Origin: a virus
Taxonomy: Duplodnaviria; Heunggongvirae; Uroviricota; Caudoviricetes
IMG/VR virus record: IMGVR_UViG_2537562192_000020
Strand: one strand, 5' to 3'
Length of the DNA: 38,194 bases
Shown here: piece by piece, positions 1-37,497 of the stretch
Position numbering within the stretch: the first letter of the stretch is position 1
Layout: the number at the start of each line of letters is the position of its first letter
Notes under the pieces: generated by a model
The model's input: only the letters and a program-made list of their open reading frames with translations
Told to the model about the DNA's origin: nothing
The model's database searches: none
Program-made: the position numbers and the translations under genes

Positions 1-1682
<1,682 letters not shown>

Positions 1683-1690
1683 CCACTACA

Positions 1691-2961
1691 AACACACATC
1701 AATGGTGGCACGCAAACCGTTCAGAATTATGGTAAGGCAATCAATACCGATATCGTCTCTGGCCTACAACAAATTATGGCAAACGGGACAGCGGAAGGTT
1801 CCATTATTAATGGGTGTTCACAGGTAGTTAATGAGGGCGGTCTGGCTGAAAACTCGGTGCTTAATGACGGCGGCACACTCGATGTGCGGGAGAAAGGCAG
1901 CGCAACGGGGATACAGCAGAGTAGCCAGGACGCTTTGGTTGCAACCACCAGGGCGACGCGGGTCACAGGAACACGCGCGGATGGCGTCGCGTTCAGCATC
2001 GAGCAGGGTGCGGCGAACAATATCCTGCTGGCAAATGGCGGCGTGTTAACCATGGAGTCAGACACCTCTTCTGACAAAACACAGGTCAATACGGGCGGAC
2101 GGGAGATCGTCAAAACAAAAGCCACTGCGACAGGCACGACGCTCACCGGCGGCGAACAAATCGTCGAGGGGGTGGCGAATGAGACAACGATTAACGACGG
2201 CGGAATACAAACAGTTTCAGCTAACGGAGAGGCAATAAAAACAAAGATCAATGAAGGCGGTACGCTGACAGTTAACGATAATGGCAAAGCGACAGATATC
2301 GTCCAGAACAGCGGTGCCGCTCTCCAGACGAGCACGGCTAACGGTATTGAAATCAGCGGTACTCACCAGTACGGCACTTTTTCCATTTCCGGCAATTTAG
2401 CGACCAATATGTTGCTGGAAAATGGCGGTAATTTATTGGTATTAGCAGGTACCGAAGCTCGCGACTCCACGGTTGGCAGCGGTGGAGCCGCCAACGGCAG
2501 TTATCGCAGCAACGGGCTGGGCGGTCACATTGAAACCGGGATGCGATTTACCGATGGTAACTGGAACCTGACGCCGTATGCATCGTTAACGGGGGTTCAC
2601 CGCTGATAACCCTGAATATCATTTATCCAATGGCATGGAATCGAAATCAGTCGATACCCGCAGTTTATATCGTGAACTGGGTGCAACGCTGAGTTACAAC
2701 ATGCGTCTGGGGAACGGTATGGAAGTTGAGCCGTGGCTGAAGGCGGCTGTGCGCAAAGAATTTATCGATGATAACCGGGTGAAAGTGAATAGTGACGGTA
2801 ATTTCGTCAATGATTTGTCGGGCAGACGTGGAATATACCAGGCAGGTATTAAAGCCTCATTCAGCAGTACGTTAAGCGGGCATCTTGGGGTGGGGTATAG
2901 CCATGGTGCCGGTGTGGAATCCCCGTGGAACGGGGTAGCTGGTGTGAACTGGTCGTTCTGA
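1691..2961 (+). pseudogene. autotransporter adhesin, C-terminal fragment (passenger repeats plus partial beta-barrel), frameshifted
   Basis: Passenger-like repeats in frame 3 (1691-2606), then a frame switch to frame 1 within GGGGG run 2591-2595; frame 1 continues to a beta-barrel C-terminus ending ...GVNWSF (terminal aromatic). Confidence 0.65.
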
Positions 2962-2973
2962 CCATCAACGAAA

Positions 2974-2996
2974 AAGCCCACATCTGTGGGCTTTCA
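2974..2996 (+). terminator. rho-independent terminator-like hairpin after autotransporter gene
   Basis: AAGCCCAC-atct-GTGGGCTT stem-loop followed by a short T-run. Confidence 0.45.
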
Positions 2997-3121
2997 TGTC
3001 ACCAGGAGCCGCGGCTCCTTTGCGTATCCTTTTATGTCTCTTCACCGTCTGGTCGGTGTCCTGCTGAGACTGCTAACTTCCTGTTTTTATTGGTGTTGTC
3101 CTTATACCGTCCAATCATGAT

Positions 3122-3166
3122 TGGTGGAGCTGGCGGGAGTTGAACCCGCGTCCGAAATTCCTACAT
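3122..3166. repeat. prophage attachment-site direct repeat (left copy), identical to the 3' terminal 45 nt of ssrA
   Basis: 45/45 identity with 37135-37179 (TGGTGGAGCTGGCGGGAGTTGAACCCGCGTCCGAAATTCCTACAT); sequences diverge immediately outside. Confidence 0.85.
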
Positions 3167-3251: not shown

Positions 3252-3920
3252 TTAACTTTCTGCCGCCAAAGTGCCGCCACTGCATTTGTCGCCTAAACGC
3301 CTATTTGAAACGATTAATCTCTCGGCGATCTTAATCTTGGAGAGCTTATCTAGGCAGATAAAGCATATTGCTACTCCCGATACCACAAAATAGCTGCTTA
3401 AACCAAAGTATTGCCAAGTAGTTAGATGGTTTATCTTCTCCATCATCTTAGCACTTACTACAACAGAATAACTGAAAGGAAGTGCTACGATGAGACTGCC
3501 CATGAAGTAAATTAGAGTTGTTATAATTTTTATTAATTTTCTATATATGCTGTATTTATATCTTTTTTTATTCCATGCGAATATTTCTTTATGGGTGGTA
3601 ATGGAAATTAGACTTTGACATTTGGAATAATCATCTATATCGCTAACGGGGTTTGTTGTGTTGAGTAATATTAATCTTTGTTTTTTTGTCAATGTGTTAT
3701 CTTTGGTTAATGCAGCAATGCCGTAATCTTCCGCCAGTTTTTTGAAGGTCGGATCTTCACTGCTTTTATACATCTGATATGAAAATTCGCTAATGTTTTT
3801 ACGTGATGTGAATAGTTTGTCTTTTTTATAAGTCCACCCTGTTTTAAGCCCTAATAAGGATATAATGGCAGATAGGGAAGGGAATAATATTTTTATAAGT
3901 AACTCTAGTTCGCTATTCAT
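3252..3920 (-). CDS. hypothetical membrane protein (AT-rich moron between int and attL)
   Basis: 222-aa ORF with about 3 predicted hydrophobic helices; strongly AT-rich relative to the phage backbone; GAGGT RBS before ATG at 3920; immediately downstream of int on the same strand. Confidence 0.55.
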   Translation of the reverse strand: MNSELELLIKILFPSLSAIISLLGLKTGWTYKKDKLFTSRKNISEFSYQMYKSSEDPTFKKLAEDYGIAALTKDNTLTKKQRLILLNTTNPVSDIDDYSKCQSLISITTHKEIFAWNKKRYKYSIYRKLIKIITTLIYFMGSLIVALPFSYSVVVSAKMMEKINHLTTWQYFGLSSYFVVSGVAICFICLDKLSKIKIAERLIVSNRRLGDKCSGGTLAAES

Positions 3921-3930
3921 AAATTACTAC

Positions 3931-4947
3931 TTACCTCAAATTAAATAAAGGATTTTTAGTTACGGCATCTTCTAAATGGTCTGGGGCGAAGTGTGCATAG
4001 ACCATGGTCATTTTTATATCTGAATGTCCTAGGATATCCCGCAAAACCAATATGTTTCCACCATTCATCATAAAATGGCTAGCGAATGTATGACGCAGAA
4101 CGTGAGTACATTGACCCTCTGGCAGATCGATACCAGCCCGCTTTACTGCACGCTCAAAGGCTTTTCTGCATGGGGTGAATAACTTCCCCCTATTCTTAGG
4201 CAGTTCTTCATATAAATCCTTAGAAATAGGCACAGTTCGGTTTTTCTTGCCTTTGGTCTTGGTATAAGTGATACGGTATTTTGATACCTGATGACTCTGC
4301 AGGTTTTCGGCTTCGCTCCAGCGTGCGCCGGTGGCCAGGCATATTTTTGCAATCAAAAGCAGGCTGGAGCTTTGAGAATCGGCGCAGGCATCCAGCAGAC
4401 GTTTAATTTCTTCCGGGGTCAGGAACGCCAATTCACTCTCAGCAATTTTAAATGTTGGCAGCCCAGCAAGCGGGTTGGGGGCTGACCAGTGGCCCAGCTT
4501 TTTCAGTGTACCAAAAACAGATGATAGATTGCGCTGTTCAAGGTTTACCGTGCGGGGCTTAACGGGCGACATAAACGTGCCATCTTCATTTCGTACTTCA
4601 CCTTTTAACCGTGCTTCGCGGTATTTCGTAAAGTCACCGGCTGTCAGTTCTGAAGCGATGGGATCGCCTAGACCATTACAGATAATTCTAAGTTTCGCTA
4701 TGAGGCGCTTGGGGTCTGCGAGTGTTTGACCATACAGGGAATACCACTGCTCAATTAATTCTGATAGGTGTCGCCGATCTTCCTTTTCCCCCAGCCATGG
4801 TTTTTTGTTCACTTCTTCCATTGTGAAGCTTTCAAAAGCAATGGCTTCGCCTTTCGTAGCAAATTGCTTACGCACGCGCTTGCCATTGCGTCCATTGGGA
4901 TAGCACTCGCACAACCATTTACCGTTTGGCTGTTTTCTGACAGTCAT
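3931..4947 (-). CDS. int: tyrosine integrase (P2/186 Int family)
   Basis: 338 aa; C-terminal R...HxLRHT...Y catalytic signature (VLRHTFASHF...MVYAH); adjacent to att repeat. Confidence 0.9.
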   Translation of the reverse strand: MTVRKQPNGKWLCECYPNGRNGKRVRKQFATKGEAIAFESFTMEEVNKKPWLGEKEDRRHLSELIEQWYSLYGQTLADPKRLIAKLRIICNGLGDPIASELTAGDFTKYREARLKGEVRNEDGTFMSPVKPRTVNLEQRNLSSVFGTLKKLGHWSAPNPLAGLPTFKIAESELAFLTPEEIKRLLDACADSQSSSLLLIAKICLATGARWSEAENLQSHQVSKYRITYTKTKGKKNRTVPISKDLYEELPKNRGKLFTPCRKAFERAVKRAGIDLPEGQCTHVLRHTFASHFMMNGGNILVLRDILGHSDIKMTMVYAHFAPDHLEDAVTKNPLFNLR

Positions 4948-4949
4948 GT

Positions 4950-5582
4950 TTAGATACTCTTTATTACTTTGACTGCACGCCCAATAACTTCCACATCATC
5001 AGCAGAGCACTCGAAAGACGCTTCATCTTGATTTACTACAATCTTATTGCCGGGAATCCGCATGATTTTTGCAATAATAATCATTCCATCAATATTGATA
5101 AGCCAGAATCCATTGCTGACTTGTTTAACTGATTTATCGATGAGATAACAATCAGTAGGGGTTTCTAAGAACATCGATTCTTCATAATCTGCAGGTAATA
5201 TGCTGTGGTCTAGGAAAATCTCTTCATCAATACTGAGTTGTCCATTTTCCAAGGTTCCTTTAGGAATAGATGGAGTTATGAGTTTGGATAACGGTTTAAT
5301 TGCTTGTTTGTTCTCGTTATGAGATCTTTTCTCAGGCTCGTATCCTTCTTTCATGCTTCCCTGTCCAGTGGCTAACCAAAGTAACGAAACACCGGTTTCT
5401 AGTGCACACTGAATTATCCAGTCAGCAGGAAAACTGTCACGTAACACTCTGTTTGCCATAGTACTTTTTGAGACATTCAGGTGCTCGCTTAATGCCTGCT
5501 TAGTTGTGAATCCATAAGCCTCAAGCAGCCTCTCAATAGCTGCCTTACCTCCCGTATCGGAACCCATTCTGATGTTTAACAT
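4950..5582 (-). CDS. cI: CI-type immunity repressor (186 CI-like)
   Basis: 210 aa with N-terminal HTH (LSEHLNVSKSTMANRV); positioned between int and divergent early operon as in phage 186. Confidence 0.7.
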   Translation of the reverse strand: MLNIRMGSDTGGKAAIERLLEAYGFTTKQALSEHLNVSKSTMANRVLRDSFPADWIIQCALETGVSLLWLATGQGSMKEGYEPEKRSHNENKQAIKPLSKLITPSIPKGTLENGQLSIDEEIFLDHSILPADYEESMFLETPTDCYLIDKSVKQVSNGFWLINIDGMIIIAKIMRIPGNKIVVNQDEASFECSADDVEVIGRAVKVIKSI

Positions 5583-11343: not shown

Positions 11344-11437
11344 TTACGATGGTTAACCATTCGTGCTCTTAATAATACCAGGCATATCAGGCTGATAAAC
11401 GTAAAAAAACGTTTTACATCAGTAAGATTATTATATA

Positions 11438-11453
11438 CTGTAATTATAAACAG
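11438..11453 (+). promoter_or_regulatory. LexA (SOS) box overlapping promoter of DinI/Tum-like operon
   Basis: CTGTAATTATAAACAG = exact CTGT-N8-ACAG; TTTACA -35-like hexamer at 11413-11418 upstream. Confidence 0.7.
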
Positions 11454-11496
11454 TGGTTATACATACAGTATTGCGTGTGGTGTCATAGGAGGAAAG

Positions 11497-11685
11497 ATGC
11501 AGGACTATTTTTTGGAGTCTTTGAAGCTCCAGCGCATTGATTTTTTTCTTAAGCTTGTAGCGGCCAGTGAGTGTAGTGATGAAGAGAAGGGACTGGCTCT
11601 GCAGTGGGTTTCTGAATTGACTGATGAACTCATGGCAAAAATCAGAAGCCACGAATACAACCGCTCAATGGATGTCATCAGCTGA
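11497..11685 (+). CDS. small SOS-controlled protein (first gene of Tum-like operon)
   Basis: 62 aa; GGAGGAAAG RBS; directly downstream of LexA box. Confidence 0.5.
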   Translation: MQDYFLESLKLQRIDFFLKLVAASECSDEEKGLALQWVSELTDELMAKIRSHEYNRSMDVIS

Positions 11686-11695
11686 GGTGACTTTT

Positions 11696-11929
11696 ATGCG
11701 CATTGAAATAATGATCGATAAAGAGCAGAAGATTAGCCAGTCTACCCTGGACGCCCTTGAATCCGAGCTTTACCGTAATCTGCGCCCCCTGTATCCCAAA
11801 ACGGTAATTCGTATCCGCAAAGGTAGCTCTAACGGTGTGGAACTGACCGGACTGCAACTGGACGAAGAAAGGAAGCAAGTGATGAAAATTATGCAGAAGG
11901 TGTGGGAAGACGACAGCTGGCTGCATTAA
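11696..11929 (+). CDS. DinI-family protein (186 Tum-like antirepressor module)
   Basis: MRIEIMIDK...KIMQKVWEDDSWLH resembles E. coli DinI; GAGGTGA RBS. Confidence 0.7.
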   Translation: MRIEIMIDKEQKISQSTLDALESELYRNLRPLYPKTVIRIRKGSSNGVELTGLQLDEERKQVMKIMQKVWEDDSWLH

Positions 11930-12064
11930 GAAACGTTGCTGGCGTCTGAACTTGTTTCTGGCGTCAGCAAGGTTGAACAACGAGCCCTTGCGAGGCGTTA
12001 GCTCTGTAGTGCATGTCTATGCCGCATGAGATCGCATGATCGTTTGAGGATCGTTTTTGCTAAG

Positions 12065-12088
12065 GCCCGCCAGAACTGGTGGGCTTTT
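12065..12088 (+). terminator. rho-independent terminator after Tum-like operon
   Basis: GCCCGCCAG-aact-CTGGTGGGC (one G-U pair) followed by TTTT. Confidence 0.55.
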
Positions 12089-12133
12089 GCGTAGATCATG
12101 CAGGTGCATGAAAACCACTACATAAAGCGGGCA

Positions 12134-12152
12134 GGCGTGGCGGGGATACGAG
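12134..12152. other. candidate cos site (cohesive-end sequence of P2/186 type)
   Basis: GGCGTGGCGGGGATACGAG; first 13 nt match my recollection of the 186/P2 19-nt cohesive end (GGCG[T/A]GGCGGGGAAAGCA). Confidence 0.45.
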
Positions 12153-12292
12153 CGCGCGCCGAAGCGATTACGTAAGAGTTTTGGCTATTGATGTCATAGT
12201 GAACTTAATGATGGAGAAAGTGTCAACCTATGTGTAAACTACAGTTAGTAAGATAAAGAGATATGAGATGAAACAATTTCAAGGAGGGCGGC

Positions 12293-13102
12293 ATGAGTAC
12301 TAACAGCGAACGTATGTCCAATGCGCCCGTTTACTATGCATTGGTACAGGTAAAGTTTACTCCAATAGCTGCAATGAGTAAGTATGTTCCAGACATACAA
12401 GATGCGCTAAGAGTTGAGGGATTTCCTTTATTTGAGGTTTCCAATACAACTCAGTTGAAATTTGAAATAAAAAACCCCAATGAGCCACCGGTACATTCAT
12501 TTGAGCCTGTGACAAGTTGGTTGATGATTGATGCAGATAGAAGATCTGGTTTTGTTTTAGGCAACGATTTCATTACGTTCCATACAACATATTATGATAA
12601 CCATGTATCTTTCATCTCGTCATTGATACTTGGTCTGAGCAAAGTTCTAGAATTTGCTAAGCCATCGCTGTTAAGTCGGATTGGGCTTCGATATTTGGAT
12701 GCTGTGTTTCCTGAGAAAAGCGAAACAATTGAGCAGTATCTTGTAAAGGAACTTCATGGTGTTGATTTCGGATGGACGCCAATACAGTCTATACAAGAGT
12801 CCGTATATCAGACATGTGTTGAGCCATTGATCCCTAATGGATTTATGGTTTCACGAATACATAAGATGAATGGTCAGCTAGGTTTTCCGCCAGATATGAT
12901 TCCTAATGGTTTACTGCCGTTGCCGAGATTTAGTAACACAGAGCATCGTATGCACGCAATAATTGATACAGATCATTATGTTGAAGGCAACATGTCAACT
13001 GATTTGCAGTTAATTGAAAAACAGATTCTTTCGTTGCATAGTAAAGTTAAAGAAGCATTTGAAGGCATGGTTTCAGATTTTGCCCGTACTAAATGGCACT
13101 GA
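12293..13102 (+). CDS. hypothetical protein, cargo gene 1 of cos-proximal cassette
   Basis: 269 aa; AGGAGGG RBS; AT-rich; contains RIGLRYLD segment; no similarity to P2/186 core proteins recognised. Confidence 0.7.
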   Translation: MSTNSERMSNAPVYYALVQVKFTPIAAMSKYVPDIQDALRVEGFPLFEVSNTTQLKFEIKNPNEPPVHSFEPVTSWLMIDADRRSGFVLGNDFITFHTTYYDNHVSFISSLILGLSKVLEFAKPSLLSRIGLRYLDAVFPEKSETIEQYLVKELHGVDFGWTPIQSIQESVYQTCVEPLIPNGFMVSRIHKMNGQLGFPPDMIPNGLLPLPRFSNTEHRMHAIIDTDHYVEGNMSTDLQLIEKQILSLHSKVKEAFEGMVSDFARTKWH

Positions 13103-13121
13103 AACAACGGAGGTGACTAAA

Positions 13122-13784
13122 ATGTATGCAATTCCCACCGGAAGCATAGGCTCTGTAGATCGATATTCTCCAAATTTGCAGTCAAGCTCATGTGTATCAG
13201 GTGTTGTTGCTGTCGCCGCATCTTTACTATTAGTTGGTACGGGGGCTTCATACCCTGTAAATGCTTATAAGCAATGGCGTCAGTATGTTCAGCCAAGGGT
13301 TCAGTTTGCATTTGATTCCATAGAATCAACGTACACGCCTGCAATTTCTCCTGAGGTTGATGTCAGGAATGTTGCCCAACATTTAGCTAATATTCGAGAA
13401 GTGCTGTCTCCATCAATGTCAGAACTGGCAAAGGATTTGGGGATAACTCGGCAGGCTCTCTATAAATGGTTGTCAGGGGAGAACCAGCCTGATGATGCTT
13501 CAAAAGTGCAATTCATTACCAACCTTAGTAATGTCGCTGACTCTTTTTCCAAAGCTGGACTCCATGATGCGAAGCTATTGGTGAAAATGAAAGCATTTAA
13601 TGGTAAGTCATTAATGGACGTAGTAAAAGAAGGTGAGGATTGGAATAGGGCAGTTCAGGTATTGATTGATGAAGCTAAAGCGATGAATGCTGCTGCTGAA
13701 TCGGCCAATTACTTAGCAAGCAAGGCGAAACCGACAGATGATTGGAAGTCATCTATTTCAATTCCTGGAACGGTAGAGGAATAA
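13122..13784 (+). CDS. hypothetical HTH (XRE-type) protein with N-terminal hydrophobic segment, cargo gene 2
   Basis: GGAGGTGA RBS 9 nt before ATG 13122; hydrophobic stretch VSGVVAVAASLLLVGTGA; HTH SMSELAKDLGITRQALYKWL. Confidence 0.6.
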   Translation: MYAIPTGSIGSVDRYSPNLQSSSCVSGVVAVAASLLLVGTGASYPVNAYKQWRQYVQPRVQFAFDSIESTYTPAISPEVDVRNVAQHLANIREVLSPSMSELAKDLGITRQALYKWLSGENQPDDASKVQFITNLSNVADSFSKAGLHDAKLLVKMKAFNGKSLMDVVKEGEDWNRAVQVLIDEAKAMNAAAESANYLASKAKPTDDWKSSISIPGTVEE

Positions 13785-13793
13785 ATCACATTT

Positions 13794-14642
13794 ATGTTGG
13801 TACGAGGAACATCATGGCGTCAGGGGCATGTACTTAAACATGATGATGCCGTTTCACTTGGAATTCTGCAGCCTGATGAAACGAACCATAAAGTTGTAGT
13901 TATAACGCATGATTGTGATTTACAGAGTAATTCAGAAAAAAACGTGGAACTGATGTTTGGCCCCTTGAAAAAGGGGTCAAGCAGGATGAAAAGAGCTAAG
14001 CATCCGAGAATACTCGATCTATGTTTTGAAAACCCAGAAAGTGCGAAGAAGAATGCAGTAGAGCTCCGGCATGAAAGGAAAGTCATCATTCCTAAAGAAG
14101 CTTTCTGTTGTGAGGAAAACGATCCAGCATTCTCCATTAGCACAGAAGAGAAACAAGCTCTTAAGCAATGGTTAGCTGCTAAGTATGGTCGTCCAGCGTT
14201 TCCTAACTCGTTTGAAGAGCGCTTGCGGGCTTACGACGAGGATAAAAAGTTTATTTTCGAAAAAGAAGTTGCGGATATTATCGCCACAAACGCAGAGCAT
14301 TTGATCGGAGTTTTTTTCGATTTGGGCGAAGAAAGATTTAACGATCTTGAGGAAGGCATACCATATGAGCTTTCTATCAATGTTGTTTATGATGCAACTG
14401 AAGGTGGCCCCGATGCCAGAAGAGCGGCTGAACAAACATGTTCTGATCTAAAGGCTTTGTTTTATAAGTTTTATGGTGATCCAACCTTGGGGCATTCAGA
14501 ACTTATAGAATTGAATACGTGCATAGCTGTTGCTGATACTCATTTCTCCCTGTATGCATTGAGGCGGATGGATCAATGGAGGGTAGAATACATCAGCCTT
14601 GAAGAAGATTCATATGGCGATTTCATTGGTGCCGGTGTTTAA
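13794..14642 (+). CDS. hypothetical acidic protein, cargo gene 3
   Basis: 282-aa ORF 9 bp after gene 2; no recognisable motif. Confidence 0.55.
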   Translation: MLVRGTSWRQGHVLKHDDAVSLGILQPDETNHKVVVITHDCDLQSNSEKNVELMFGPLKKGSSRMKRAKHPRILDLCFENPESAKKNAVELRHERKVIIPKEAFCCEENDPAFSISTEEKQALKQWLAAKYGRPAFPNSFEERLRAYDEDKKFIFEKEVADIIATNAEHLIGVFFDLGEERFNDLEEGIPYELSINVVYDATEGGPDARRAAEQTCSDLKALFYKFYGDPTLGHSELIELNTCIAVADTHFSLYALRRMDQWRVEYISLEEDSYGDFIGAGV

Positions 14643-14667
14643 ACTGGCTGTTCCGACAGCCAGTTTA
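14642..14667. terminator. bidirectional terminator-like hairpin between cargo cassette and portal gene
   Basis: AAACTGGCTG-ttccga-CAGCCAGTTT perfect 10-bp inverted repeat between convergent genes. Confidence 0.5.
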
Positions 14668-36509: not shown

Positions 36510-36530
36510 AACCTGCTACGGCAGGTTTTT
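36510..36530. terminator. bidirectional terminator-like hairpin between ogr and convergent cargo gene
   Basis: AACCTGC-tacg-GCAGGTT followed by TTTTT. Confidence 0.5.
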
Positions 36531-37011
36531 ATTCATCTGGGATCTCACCCGTTTCAAGAAAATGTATAAAGCCAGGCTCATCTATGATGATTGTGCCTTT
36601 CATCCGGGCTGCCGATACTTTTGATGGGCCTGCATTGTAACCGCAACAGAGCATCTGAAGGCTTTGGGTTACAGAGGTTCTTACCGTTAATCCTTGTTCA
36701 TTCGCCTTATCAACCAATCTTTCTTTATCTGCTTTCTTAAATCCGGTGAAACATACATCGAATGTATTTTTTTTCGGACCAGACTGCTTGGTGAGATGTG
36801 AGTAGTTTTCGGGGAGGAATGACGCGCACTCCTGAATGGCTTGTTCTGGTGAATCGTACTGTTTAAGAATGCGGTCTTTTCGGAAGGTTTTTATTCGATC
36901 GGTGTTCTTACAAATGCCCTGTATATGATTTTCGCTATAACTGATGCTCTGTATAGAGTGAACACCGATACGACCATTTGCATTGATGTAAACAAAGTGA
37001 AGTTCTTCCAT
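36529..37011 (-). CDS. hypothetical protein with WYL-like N-terminal and BRCT-like C-terminal domains (cargo next to attR)
   Basis: N-terminus ...HIQGICKNTDRIKTFRKDRI resembles the WYL core; C-terminus FDVCFTGF...GLTVRTSVTQSLQMLCCGYNAGPSKVSAARMKGTIIIDEPGF resembles LigA-type BRCT; AGAGG RBS. Confidence 0.6.
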   Translation of the reverse strand: MEELHFVYINANGRIGVHSIQSISYSENHIQGICKNTDRIKTFRKDRILKQYDSPEQAIQECASFLPENYSHLTKQSGPKKNTFDVCFTGFKKADKERLVDKANEQGLTVRTSVTQSLQMLCCGYNAGPSKVSAARMKGTIIIDEPGFIHFLETGEIPDE

Positions 37012-37092
37012 GTGAAACCTCTTTGCATGATTTCAAGATGGCGACAGGCAAGATGGACGCAAAAGTCTGTCGCCATTTTGCCGCCACTACCA

Positions 37093-37124: not shown

Positions 37125-37134
37125 TTGATTTATT

Positions 37135-37179
37135 TGGTGGAGCTGGCGGGAGTTGAACCCGCGTCCGAAATTCCTACAT
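37135..37179. repeat. prophage attachment-site direct repeat (right copy) = 3' end of intact ssrA
   Basis: Identical to 3122-3166. Confidence 0.85.
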
Positions 37180-37497
37180 CCTCGGTACTACATGCTTAGT
37201 CAGTCTTTACATTCGCTTGCCAGCTGCGGACGGACACGCCACTAACAAACTAGCCTGATTAAGTTTTAACGCTTCAACCCCAGGCAGGGCTTCCACGCGA
37301 TCTCTTTTGGGTTTGACCTCTCTTGATCCCCGTCCTAAGAGCGGAGGCTAGGGAGAGAGGGCTCTAAGCAGGTTATTAAGCTGCTAAAGCGTAGTTTTCG
37401 TCGTTTGCGACTATTTTTTGCGGCTTTTTACGAGGCCAACCGCCCCTCGGCATGCACCTTGGGTTTCGCAAATCCCGTCGAATCCAGAATCAGCCCC
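37135..37497 (-). ncRNA. ssrA: tmRNA (SsrA), 363 nt
   Basis: Reverse complement begins GGGGCUGAUUCUGGAUUCGAC and ends ...GUUCAACUCCCGCCAGCUCCACCA, matching my memory of E. coli tmRNA. Confidence 0.95.

What the first reader, a model, noticed from the sequence alone, without database searches (positions are those of the whole stretch)
3252..3920. AT-rich membrane-protein moron between int and the attachment site
Seen in sequence: a 222-aa ORF immediately downstream of int on the same strand, with a GAGGT RBS and about three hydrophobic helices, lying in a ~600 bp block that is far more AT-rich than the surrounding prophage. P2 and 186 have no gene between int and att, to my knowledge. Inference: horizontally acquired cargo, candidate superinfection-exclusion or abortive-infection membrane protein, possibly co-transcribed with int in the lysogen.
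Basis: partly seen in the sequence, partly recalled or inferred. Interest (0 to 1): 0.5.

Follow-up and report, generated by a model that had tools for sequence, protein, structure and literature searches.

The report
Uncharacterised membrane cargo gene beside prophage integrase
A real, conserved gene for a small three-helix inner-membrane protein of unknown function sits in a swappable slot between the integrase gene and the attachment site of a 186/Fels-2-like prophage; sibling phages carry proven anti-phage genes in that slot, so it is a good but untested candidate for a new phage-defence protein.

Summary
Window 3252-3920 (minus strand) is a 222-aa ORF that starts 10 bp after int. It has GAGGT 12 nt upstream, three hydrophobic helices and 32-35% GC, against about 52% for the prophage.

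The prophage is 186/Fels-2-like and sits in ssrA, with 46-bp att repeats at 3121-3166 and 37134-37179.

The gene is real: relatives show saturated synonymous change but only 0.20-0.36 non-synonymous change.

It has no Pfam, NCBIfam or PADLOC match; its only hit is PHROG 21256 (unknown function). A confident AlphaFold model (pLDDT 92) matches no solved or viral structure.

It fills a sharply bounded cassette (about 3281-3937). Near-identical sibling prophages carry unrelated genes there, including GapS1 and an anti-phage dCTP deaminase. A 2026 paper already lists int-att as a minor defence hotspot of P2-like phages.

Relatives always lie downstream of cI on the same strand. Orphan copies persist in Klebsiella chromosomes.

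Best reading, at about 0.5: a lysogen-expressed membrane defence protein that senses infection on the cytoplasmic side.

Verdict: a new member of a known kind, of moderate interest.

The parts
3252..3920 (-). 222-aa ORF (RefSeq WP_001083624.1, 'hypothetical protein'). Predicted topology: N-terminus out; TM1 7-27; basic cytoplasmic domain 28-128; TM2 129-152; short periplasmic loop; TM3 172-191; cytoplasmic C-terminal helix and tail.
3281..3937 (.). Variable cargo cassette. DNA on both sides is shared with Fels-2-like phages that carry other cargo; DNA inside is not.
   Evidence: blastn breakpoints at 3279-3288 and 3937-3950
3933..3937 (-). GAGGT Shine-Dalgarno-like motif overlapping the int stop codon, 12 nt before the ATG
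   Evidence: read directly
3261..3294 (+). Three direct TGYCGCCW repeats (starting at 3261, 3272 and 3287). They are likely Int arm-type sites and lie inside the last ~15 codons of the ORF. A matching trio lies at 37039-37086 near the other att.
   Evidence: compare the 186 arm-site consensus YAYCGCCAYTY
3121..3166 (.). att core copy: a 46-bp duplicate of the ssrA 3' end, marking the int-side end of the prophage
37134..37179 (.). Second att core copy, inside the intact tmRNA gene (37135-37497, minus strand)
3931..4947 (-). Tyrosine integrase (Int_N + Phage_integrase), 92-95% identical to the Int of Fels-2, RE2010 and Cartapus
4950..5582 (-). 186-type CI repressor, first gene of the presumed lysogenic operon cI-int-ORF
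2970..2995 (-). Hairpin followed by a U-run on the minus strand, in host DNA just beyond att. It is the likely terminator of the leftward transcript.
   Evidence: -16.7 kcal/mol, z -4.8; not flagged by the scan

Best explanation
The ORF is an accessory ('moron') gene carried in the int-att cargo slot of a 186/Fels-2-like prophage.

Shown:
- It encodes a conserved three-helix inner-membrane protein.
- Its best-conserved part is a basic, roughly 100-residue domain predicted to face the cytoplasm.
- It occupies a cassette that sibling phages fill with other genes, some of them proven anti-phage genes.

Inferred:
- It is transcribed in the lysogen as the last gene of the cI-int operon.
- It protects the lysogen against other phages.

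Most likely mechanism, which is the weakest step: the cytoplasmic domain detects a sign of infection, and the three-helix bundle, probably as an oligomer, then compromises the membrane. That would abort the infection, as a one-protein counterpart of lambda RexA/RexB.

My split: defence of any kind about 0.5-0.55. Within that, abortive infection about 0.3-0.35 and block of DNA entry about 0.2.
For: Real gene under constraint:
- Relatives show pS 0.75-0.86 and pN 0.20-0.36.
- The exhaustive profile search found 72 family representatives, nearly all 200-240 aa.

Structure:
- AF2 with 42 sequences gave pLDDT 92.1 and pTM 0.79.
- The model has three long helices plus a small alpha/beta domain at 57-122.

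Topology and conservation:
- The positive-inside rule puts 28-128 (20 K+R against 11 D+E; family median net charge +7) and the C-tail in the cytoplasm.
- The domain at 57-122 is the best conserved part (0.48); the periplasmic loop is the worst of the folded segments (0.21).

Slot is swappable:
- The cassette has sharp edges.
- S88, with Int 98% and CI 99.5% identical, carries a different 407-aa gene.
- Other occupants are proteins of 309, 343, 352, 401, 408 and 510 aa.

Slot holds validated defence genes:
- GapS1 in E. coli E308 (phenotype).
- An anti-phage dCTP deaminase alone in VG888.
- The same dCTP deaminase next to the 67%-identical homolog in Siccibacter.
- A retron II-A next to a 34%-identical homolog.
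- Literature: int-att holds 3% of the defence systems of P2-like phages.

Lysogeny-operon linkage:
- Wherever a cI gene was detected, in about 40 prophage or viral loci, the homolog is downstream of it on the same strand.

Retention without a phage:
- An orphan copy sits in the Klebsiella quasipneumoniae chromosome, with GC raised to 0.45, and is seen on at least 1000 contigs.

Distant homologs in defence contexts:
- One follows a divergent BrxR regulator.
- One lies beside a methylase/PD-(D/E)xK/Vsr island.
Against: - No homology to any known defence, exclusion or abortive-infection protein (PADLOC, PHROGs, Pfam, NCBIfam).
- No structural match.
- No conserved catalytic-looking motif.
- No expression or phenotype data.
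- Hotspot residence is only a prior. The 2026 paper reports that 15-32% of unknown P2 proteins were predicted antiviral by machine learning.
- One distant homolog lies among housekeeping genes.
- The GAGGT-to-ATG spacing of 12 nt is not ideal.
Confidence: 0.5

Rival explanations
1. Superinfection exclusion proper. The protein sits in the inner membrane and blocks genome entry of incoming phages, for example by occupying or altering the membrane component they use, without killing the cell.
For: - It has the same position and presumed expression as classical prophage exclusion genes.
- It is a membrane protein made from a single gene with no partner.
- It is the only gene in its slot.
Against: - Periplasmic exposure is tiny (6 + ~19 residues), and that loop is the least conserved folded part, whereas the cytoplasmic domain is the most conserved.
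- No similarity to any annotated exclusion family in PHROGs or PADLOC.
Confidence: 0.2
2. A lysogenic-conversion factor unrelated to phages. On this reading it is a membrane protein that changes host physiology, such as envelope stress, transport, or tolerance to colicins or antibiotics, and benefits the lysogen in that way.
For: - Orphan copies are fixed in Klebsiella chromosomes among metabolic genes.
- One distant homolog lies between fatty-acid oxidation genes and ogt.
- Nothing ties it directly to phages beyond its context.
Against: - The slot and neighbouring slots are enriched in defence genes.
- The gene evolves about six times faster at non-synonymous sites than the adjacent int (dN 0.23 against 0.04). 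It is also swapped between near-identical phages. Both are typical of conflict genes.
Confidence: 0.2
3. A phage life-cycle function: a membrane-anchored modulator of integration, excision, induction or lysis timing that works with Int or CI.
For: - It is tightly coupled to int (10-bp gap).
- It lies in the cI operon in every phage context.
- The ORF's 3' end overlaps the Int arm-type repeats.
- The N-out, C-in three-helix topology is that of class I holins (from my own knowledge).
Against: - It is dispensable. Fels-2 has only 156 bp after int, and siblings have unrelated genes.
- It is kept without any phage in Klebsiella.
- The overlap with arm sites comes only from a 14-residue C-terminal extension, modelled with low confidence, that 207-209-aa homologs lack.
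Confidence: 0.07
4. A non-functional or decaying ORF in AT-rich junk DNA.
For: AT-rich DNA throws up long ORFs, and the gene carries no annotation.
Against: - A full-length family with 58 invariant positions down to 45% identity.
- Strong purifying selection.
- A confident coevolution-driven fold.
- The exact protein is seen on more than 900 contigs.
Confidence: 0.02

Closest known systems
Defence cargo of the int-att hotspot of P2-like prophages (GapS1, anti-phage dCTP deaminase; hotspot described in NAR 2026, PMC13586616)
   Same: - The same physical slot with the same boundaries, in prophages with 84-98% identical int.
- Single genes, low GC, freely swapped.
- In Siccibacter the homolog shares the slot with a dCTP deaminase.
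   Different: - No sequence or fold relation to them.
- They are soluble enzymes (a PD-(D/E)xK nuclease, a deaminase), whereas this is a membrane protein with no catalytic motif.
- Its phenotype is untested.
Lambda RexA/RexB (abortive infection genes co-transcribed with cI)
   Same: - Expressed with the repressor in the lysogen (inferred here).
- A polytopic inner-membrane component.
- The proposed logic: a cytoplasmic trigger leading to membrane failure.
   Different: - One gene instead of two; three helices rather than four.
- No homology: PHROGs returned only phrog_21256.
- The comparison with Rex rests on my own knowledge, not on a direct alignment.
Prophage exclusion genes of the lysogeny module (lactococcal Sie2009, S. 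thermophilus Ltp, P22 SieA, HK97 gp15)
   Same: Small membrane-associated proteins encoded next to int or the repressor and made in lysogens.
   Different: - Those with known topology act through extracytoplasmic parts; here almost nothing is exposed outside the cytoplasm.
- No homology.
- Recalled from knowledge, not aligned.
Phage 186 Orf69
   Same: The same position: last gene of the cI-int lysogenic operon, between int and attP.
   Different: 83 aa, and no similarity (hhalign probability 0.04%).
ExbB/TolQ/MotA stator proteins
   Same: The same three-helix topology with a large cytoplasmic domain between TM1 and TM2, and a similar size.
   Different: - Foldseek probability is at most 0.18 and TM-score 0.17-0.30.
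- There is no ExbD/TolR-like partner gene.

Membership tests
PHROG 21256 (unknown function) | Full-length match to the family profile | tested here: met
   E 9.9e-154 over residues 1-222 of 222. The family carries no function.
Cargo of the int-att hotspot of P2-like prophages | Lies between the int stop and the att core, inside the prophage | tested here: met
   ORF 3252-3920; int stop at 3931; att core 3121-3166.
Cargo of the int-att hotspot of P2-like prophages | Sibling elements carry unrelated genes between the same conserved flanks | tested here: met
   - Breakpoints at about 3280 and about 3937-3950.
- At least nine other occupants seen.
- In E. coli complete genomes, 29 carry this gene, 11 the LF82 type and 3 the S88 type, out of 199 with a related int.
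Cargo of the int-att hotspot of P2-like prophages | Anti-phage phenotype | not testable with these tools
   Needs plaque, efficiency-of-plating and survival assays.
Known anti-phage defence families (PADLOC-DB 2.0.0) | Significant match to a defence-protein model | tested here: not met
   Only 1TM-TIR at E 0.0073, with no stretch passing on its own, in 1 of 42 family members.
Superinfection-exclusion membrane proteins | Membrane localisation | tested here: inconclusive
   Three strong hydrophobic helices and a confident model. This is a prediction only.
Superinfection-exclusion membrane proteins | A functional surface facing the periplasm or the entry route | tested here: not met
   Predicted periplasmic parts are residues 1-6 and 153-171; that loop has the lowest conservation of the folded segments (0.21).
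Two-component abortive-infection systems of the RexAB type | A separate sensor gene next to the membrane component | tested here: not met
   It is the only gene in the cassette. The 160-aa ORF across attP is not consistently linked.
ExbB/TolQ/MotA | Fold similarity and an ExbD-like partner | tested here: not met
   no partner ORF.
Winged-helix DNA-binding proteins | Helix-turn-helix plus beta-hairpin with a basic recognition helix and a significant fold match | tested here: inconclusive
   - The secondary-structure order H57-72, H79-86, H91-100, hairpin 105-116 fits.
- Helix 91-100 is acidic (PVSDIDDYSK).
Class I holins | Three helices N-out/C-in, 70-150 aa, encoded in the lysis cassette | tested here: not met
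   The topology fits, but there is a 100-residue cytoplasmic insert and the gene lies in the lysogeny operon. The holin criteria are from my own knowledge.

The most novel reading that the evidence does not exclude
The family is a new single-protein anti-phage system with a fold not seen in solved or viral structure libraries. It would be a three-helix membrane bundle carrying a cytoplasmic winged-helix-like sensor. It would be made from the prophage repressor operon, with distant relatives recruited as the first gene of a BrxR-controlled four-gene operon of wholly unknown proteins (L038).
Probability: 0.4. Interest if true: 0.55.

Novelty: new member of a known kind. Interest (0 to 1): 0.4.

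Why it matters
- The gene is a cheap, well-defined test case: 669 bp, one protein, with a native lysogen and close phages that carry other cargo in its place.
- A defence phenotype would add a membrane-acting family with no known relatives to the prophage defence repertoire.
- It would also give experimental weight to the little-studied int-att hotspot of P2/186-like phages.
- The slot has sharp, conserved flanks, so it can be mined systematically. About 200 of 5426 complete E. coli genomes carry a related int, mostly followed by unannotated genes.
- If there is no phage phenotype, the orphan copy fixed in Klebsiella quasipneumoniae still points to some host benefit worth finding.

Tried and rejected
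Negative or uninformative searches:
- Pfam, NCBIfam and PADLOC on the protein and on 42 family members gave nothing usable.
- tblastn against 50,697 deposited phage genomes gave no match, although IMG/VR prophage contigs hold the gene.
- The first AF2 run with 11 close sequences failed (pLDDT 50). Only the 42-sequence alignment worked.
- The afdb50 fold library was unavailable.
- A PDB sequence-profile search returned only designed helical repeats.
- Pattern scans: alignment A3 was too diverse, genome contigs gave one decayed Buttiauxella copy, and the metagenome scan with the distant subgroup found nothing.
- Word-based profile searches were swamped by the candidate cap.
- No supplementary tables were held for the 2026 hotspot paper, and the RefSeq accession appears in no paper.

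Ideas dropped:
- ExbB/TolQ relationship: the scores are far too weak.
- DNA-binding winged helix: the putative recognition helix is acidic and there is no significant fold hit.
- A two-gene system split by attP with the 160-aa ORF at 36529-37011. That ORF also accompanies other cargo and is adjacent to a homolog in only 2 of 12 distant loci.
- N-terminal 'fusions' in P0050 and P0051: these look like miscalled starts.
- Homology with 186 Orf69: none.

Full report
**1. What is in the sequence**

The window holds a 34-kb 186/Fels-2-like (P2-family) prophage inserted in the tmRNA gene.
- ARAGORN and Rfam find ssrA at 37135-37497 on the minus strand.
- A 46-bp copy of its 3' end recurs at 3121-3166; the two copies (the other at 37134-37179) mark the prophage ends.

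Reading leftwards on the minus strand from the immunity region:
- cI at 4950-5582 (Phage_CI_repr + Phage_CI_C).
- int at 3931-4947 (Int_N + Phage_integrase).
- The reported ORF at 3252-3920, 222 aa.

Local details of the ORF:
- The int stop codon and the ORF's ATG are 10 bp apart.
- GAGGT overlaps the int stop, 12 nt before the ATG.
- No promoter-like site lies on that strand between cI and the ORF.
- The ORF stop is 86 bp from the att core.
- GC is 0.32-0.34 across 3301-3900, the lowest in the window; the prophage late genes run at 0.52-0.59.

**2. It is a real gene**

RefSeq annotates it as hypothetical protein WP_001083624.1. The exact protein occurs on more than 900 contigs, all labelled hypothetical.

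Close relatives (45-83% identity) occur in E. coli, Siccibacter, Klebsiella and unassigned assemblies. They share 58 invariant positions.

Selection, measured against relatives 46-69% identical at the protein level:
- Synonymous sites are saturated (pS 0.75-0.86), while pN is 0.20-0.36.
- In the same phage pairs, int has dN about 0.04 against 0.23 for this gene.
- The gene is therefore constrained but evolves about six times faster than its neighbour.

An exhaustive profile search of 1.84 billion representatives found 72 family members. Nearly all are 200-240 aa and match over their full length.

**3. What the protein looks like**

It has no Pfam, NCBIfam or PADLOC family. The only hit is PHROG 21256, of unknown function.

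Hydropathy gives three helices, at 7-27, 129-152 and 172-191. The positive-inside rule places the following segments:

| Segment | Predicted side |
|---|---|
| Acidic N-terminus, 1-6 | Periplasm |
| 28-128 (20 K+R, 11 D+E) | Cytoplasm |
| Loop 153-171 | Periplasm |
| Basic C-terminus | Cytoplasm |

AlphaFold failed with 11 sequences (pLDDT 50). With 42 diverse family members it gave pLDDT 92.1 and pTM 0.79.
- The three membrane helices extend far into the cytoplasm (2-54, 124-154, 168-214).
- They carry a compact domain: helices 57-72, 79-86 and 91-100, plus a beta-hairpin at 105-116.
- That order is the one seen in winged-helix domains, but helix 91-100 is acidic.

Conservation:
- It is highest in the 57-122 domain (0.48) and lowest in the periplasmic loop (0.21).
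- The most conserved positions family-wide are L77, R82, W116, Y138, P148 and A199.

No catalytic-looking motif is conserved.

**4. The slot**

blastn against other Fels-2-like phages shows shared DNA on both sides and nothing shared between:
- On the att side, from the att core to about 3280.
- On the int side, from about 3937-3950 inwards.

The cassette is therefore about 3281-3937.

The last ~10 codons of the ORF lie in the conserved attP arm, which carries three TGYCGCCW repeats at 3261-3294. A matching trio lies near the other att at 37039-37086. They resemble the arm-site consensus annotated in phage 186. This explains why the E. coli protein is 14 residues longer than its 207-209-aa relatives, and why that tail is modelled poorly.

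Frequency in 5426 complete E. coli genomes:

| Feature | Genomes |
|---|---|
| int at least 80% identical in DNA | 199 |
| This ORF | 29 |
| LF82/Cartapus-type 401-aa gene | 11 |
| S88-type 407-aa gene | 3 |

Sampling more genomes gave further unrelated occupants of 309, 343, 352, 408 and 510 aa.

Recombination patterns:
- S88 has Int 98% and CI 99.5% identical to this window but different cargo.
- Some prophages share this int and ORF at 99% but have a CI only 58% identical.
- So recombination occurs at both ends of the int-cargo unit.

Deposited phages show the same layout:

| Phage | Between int and att |
|---|---|
| SopEPhi | orfY |
| RE2010 | gp01 |
| Cartapus | gp33 |
| Fels-2 | only 156 bp after int |
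| 186 | Orf69 (83 aa, unrelated) |
| P2 | nothing |

**5. What else lives in the slot**

Several occupants are recognised anti-phage genes:
- E. coli E308 carries a GapS1 family gene there. GAPS1 and E. coli homologs were shown experimentally to protect against coliphages.
- E. coli VG888-46E9 carries an 'anti-phage dCTP deaminase' between int and att.
- In Siccibacter and a related assembly, the 67%-identical homolog of our ORF shares the slot with that deaminase. The deaminase is 89% identical to the E. coli protein and matches PADLOC dCTPase at 2.3e-144.
- In an IMG/VR contig, a 34%-identical homolog lies next to a complete retron II-A (RT 2e-123, NDT effector 1e-66).

[quoted passage not shown] The same paper reports that 6 of 8 unknown-gene loci tested from P4 hotspots were protective. 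It also reports that 15-32% of unknown P2 proteins were predicted antiviral by machine learning.

**6. Conserved context of the family**

- In about 28 distinct prophage or viral loci, relatives at 46-100% identity sit directly after an int that is 87-100% identical.
- In a more distant group (29-39% identity), the gene follows cI directly or after one short ORF, with int elsewhere or further downstream.
- The constant feature is therefore not int or att. It is a position downstream of cI on the same strand, inside the operon that 186 transcribes from pL in lysogens (annotation).
- On the minus strand, a hairpin with a U-run at 2970-2995 (-16.7 kcal/mol, z -4.8) lies just beyond att and could end that transcript.

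Copies outside live prophages:
- Beyond the att core of a different resident prophage (L029, L037).
- Next to an int fragment in a Buttiauxella genome.
- As a lone gene between metabolic genes in Klebsiella quasipneumoniae, with GC risen to 0.45, seen on at least 1000 contigs.

Retention without the phage argues for a benefit to the host rather than a phage life-cycle role.

Of three very distant homologs whose context could be read:
- One follows a divergent BrxR-type regulator and heads a four-gene operon of unknown proteins.
- One lies beside a methylase/PD-(D/E)xK/Vsr island in Burkholderia.
- One lies among housekeeping genes.

**7. Interpretation**

Shown:
- A conserved, horizontally swapped cargo gene.
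- It encodes a predicted three-helix inner-membrane protein with a cytoplasmic domain.
- It sits in a slot where siblings carry validated defence genes.

Inferred:
- Expression in the lysogen as part of the cI-int transcript.
- A protective role against other phages.

The most conserved surface faces the cytoplasm and almost nothing faces the periplasm. I therefore favour an abortive-infection design (cytoplasmic sensing, membrane effector; about 0.3-0.35) over a block of DNA entry (about 0.2). Non-defence lysogenic conversion stays open (about 0.2). A phage life-cycle role (about 0.07) and a spurious ORF (about 0.02) are unlikely.

**8. Novelty and verdict**

The slot and the idea of prophage defence cargo are known. 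The protein family is uncharacterised and has no detectable sequence or structural relatives.

That makes it a new member of a known kind. It is of moderate interest (0.4), mainly as a well-bounded, easily tested candidate and as an entry point to a cargo slot that is mostly filled with unannotated genes.

Noticed in passing
window 3261-3294 and 37039-37086: Two trios of TGYCGCCW repeats flank the att cores. They are probable Int arm-type sites. The int-side trio lies inside the coding 3' end of the ORF.
   Followed up: partly
window ~11400-14650: This is the classical P2 gpA-portal hotspot. GC is 0.42 and it holds ORFs 12293-13102, 13014-13784 (weak HTH_3) and 13794-14642. None has a PADLOC or convincing Pfam match, so this is a second block of unknown cargo.
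   Followed up: partly
window 36529-37011 (-): A 160-aa ORF lies between ogr and the other att. It has a weak PADLOC PDC-S48 match at its C-terminus (1.8e-7). It is on the same strand as the target ORF across attP in the circular phage. A 50%-identical copy sits between cI and the family homolog in L043 and L047, but it also accompanies other cargo (L013, L042), so the linkage looks incidental.
   Followed up: yes
window 1-2961: The host autotransporter gene ypjA/ehaD is split by an IS3-family element (orfA 469-816, orfB 936-1682). Rfam places the isrC sRNA model at 501-623, inside the IS.
   Followed up: no
L038 7021-16193: A divergent BrxR-type regulator is followed by a tight four-gene operon: a 202-aa distant homolog of the target, then proteins of 519, 275 and 1723 aa. 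None of these four has any Pfam or PADLOC match, so this may be an undescribed multi-gene defence system.
   Followed up: partly
L001 8001-8624 (Klebsiella quasipneumoniae): An orphan single-gene copy of the family lies between a FAD monooxygenase and a LysR regulator. There is no int remnant, GC is 0.45, and it is widespread in the species, which suggests domestication.
   Followed up: partly
L043 7652-10530: A complete retron II-A (RT plus NDT effector) and a 170-aa ORF with a hydrophobic N-terminus sit in the cI-int interval of a P2-like viral contig, next to the family homolog.
   Followed up: partly
L029 5419-6603 and L037: Family homologs lie just outside the att core of a different resident prophage. 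In L029 this is beside a fragment of a P4-type integrase N-terminus. This points to leftovers of earlier occupants of the ssrA site.
   Followed up: no
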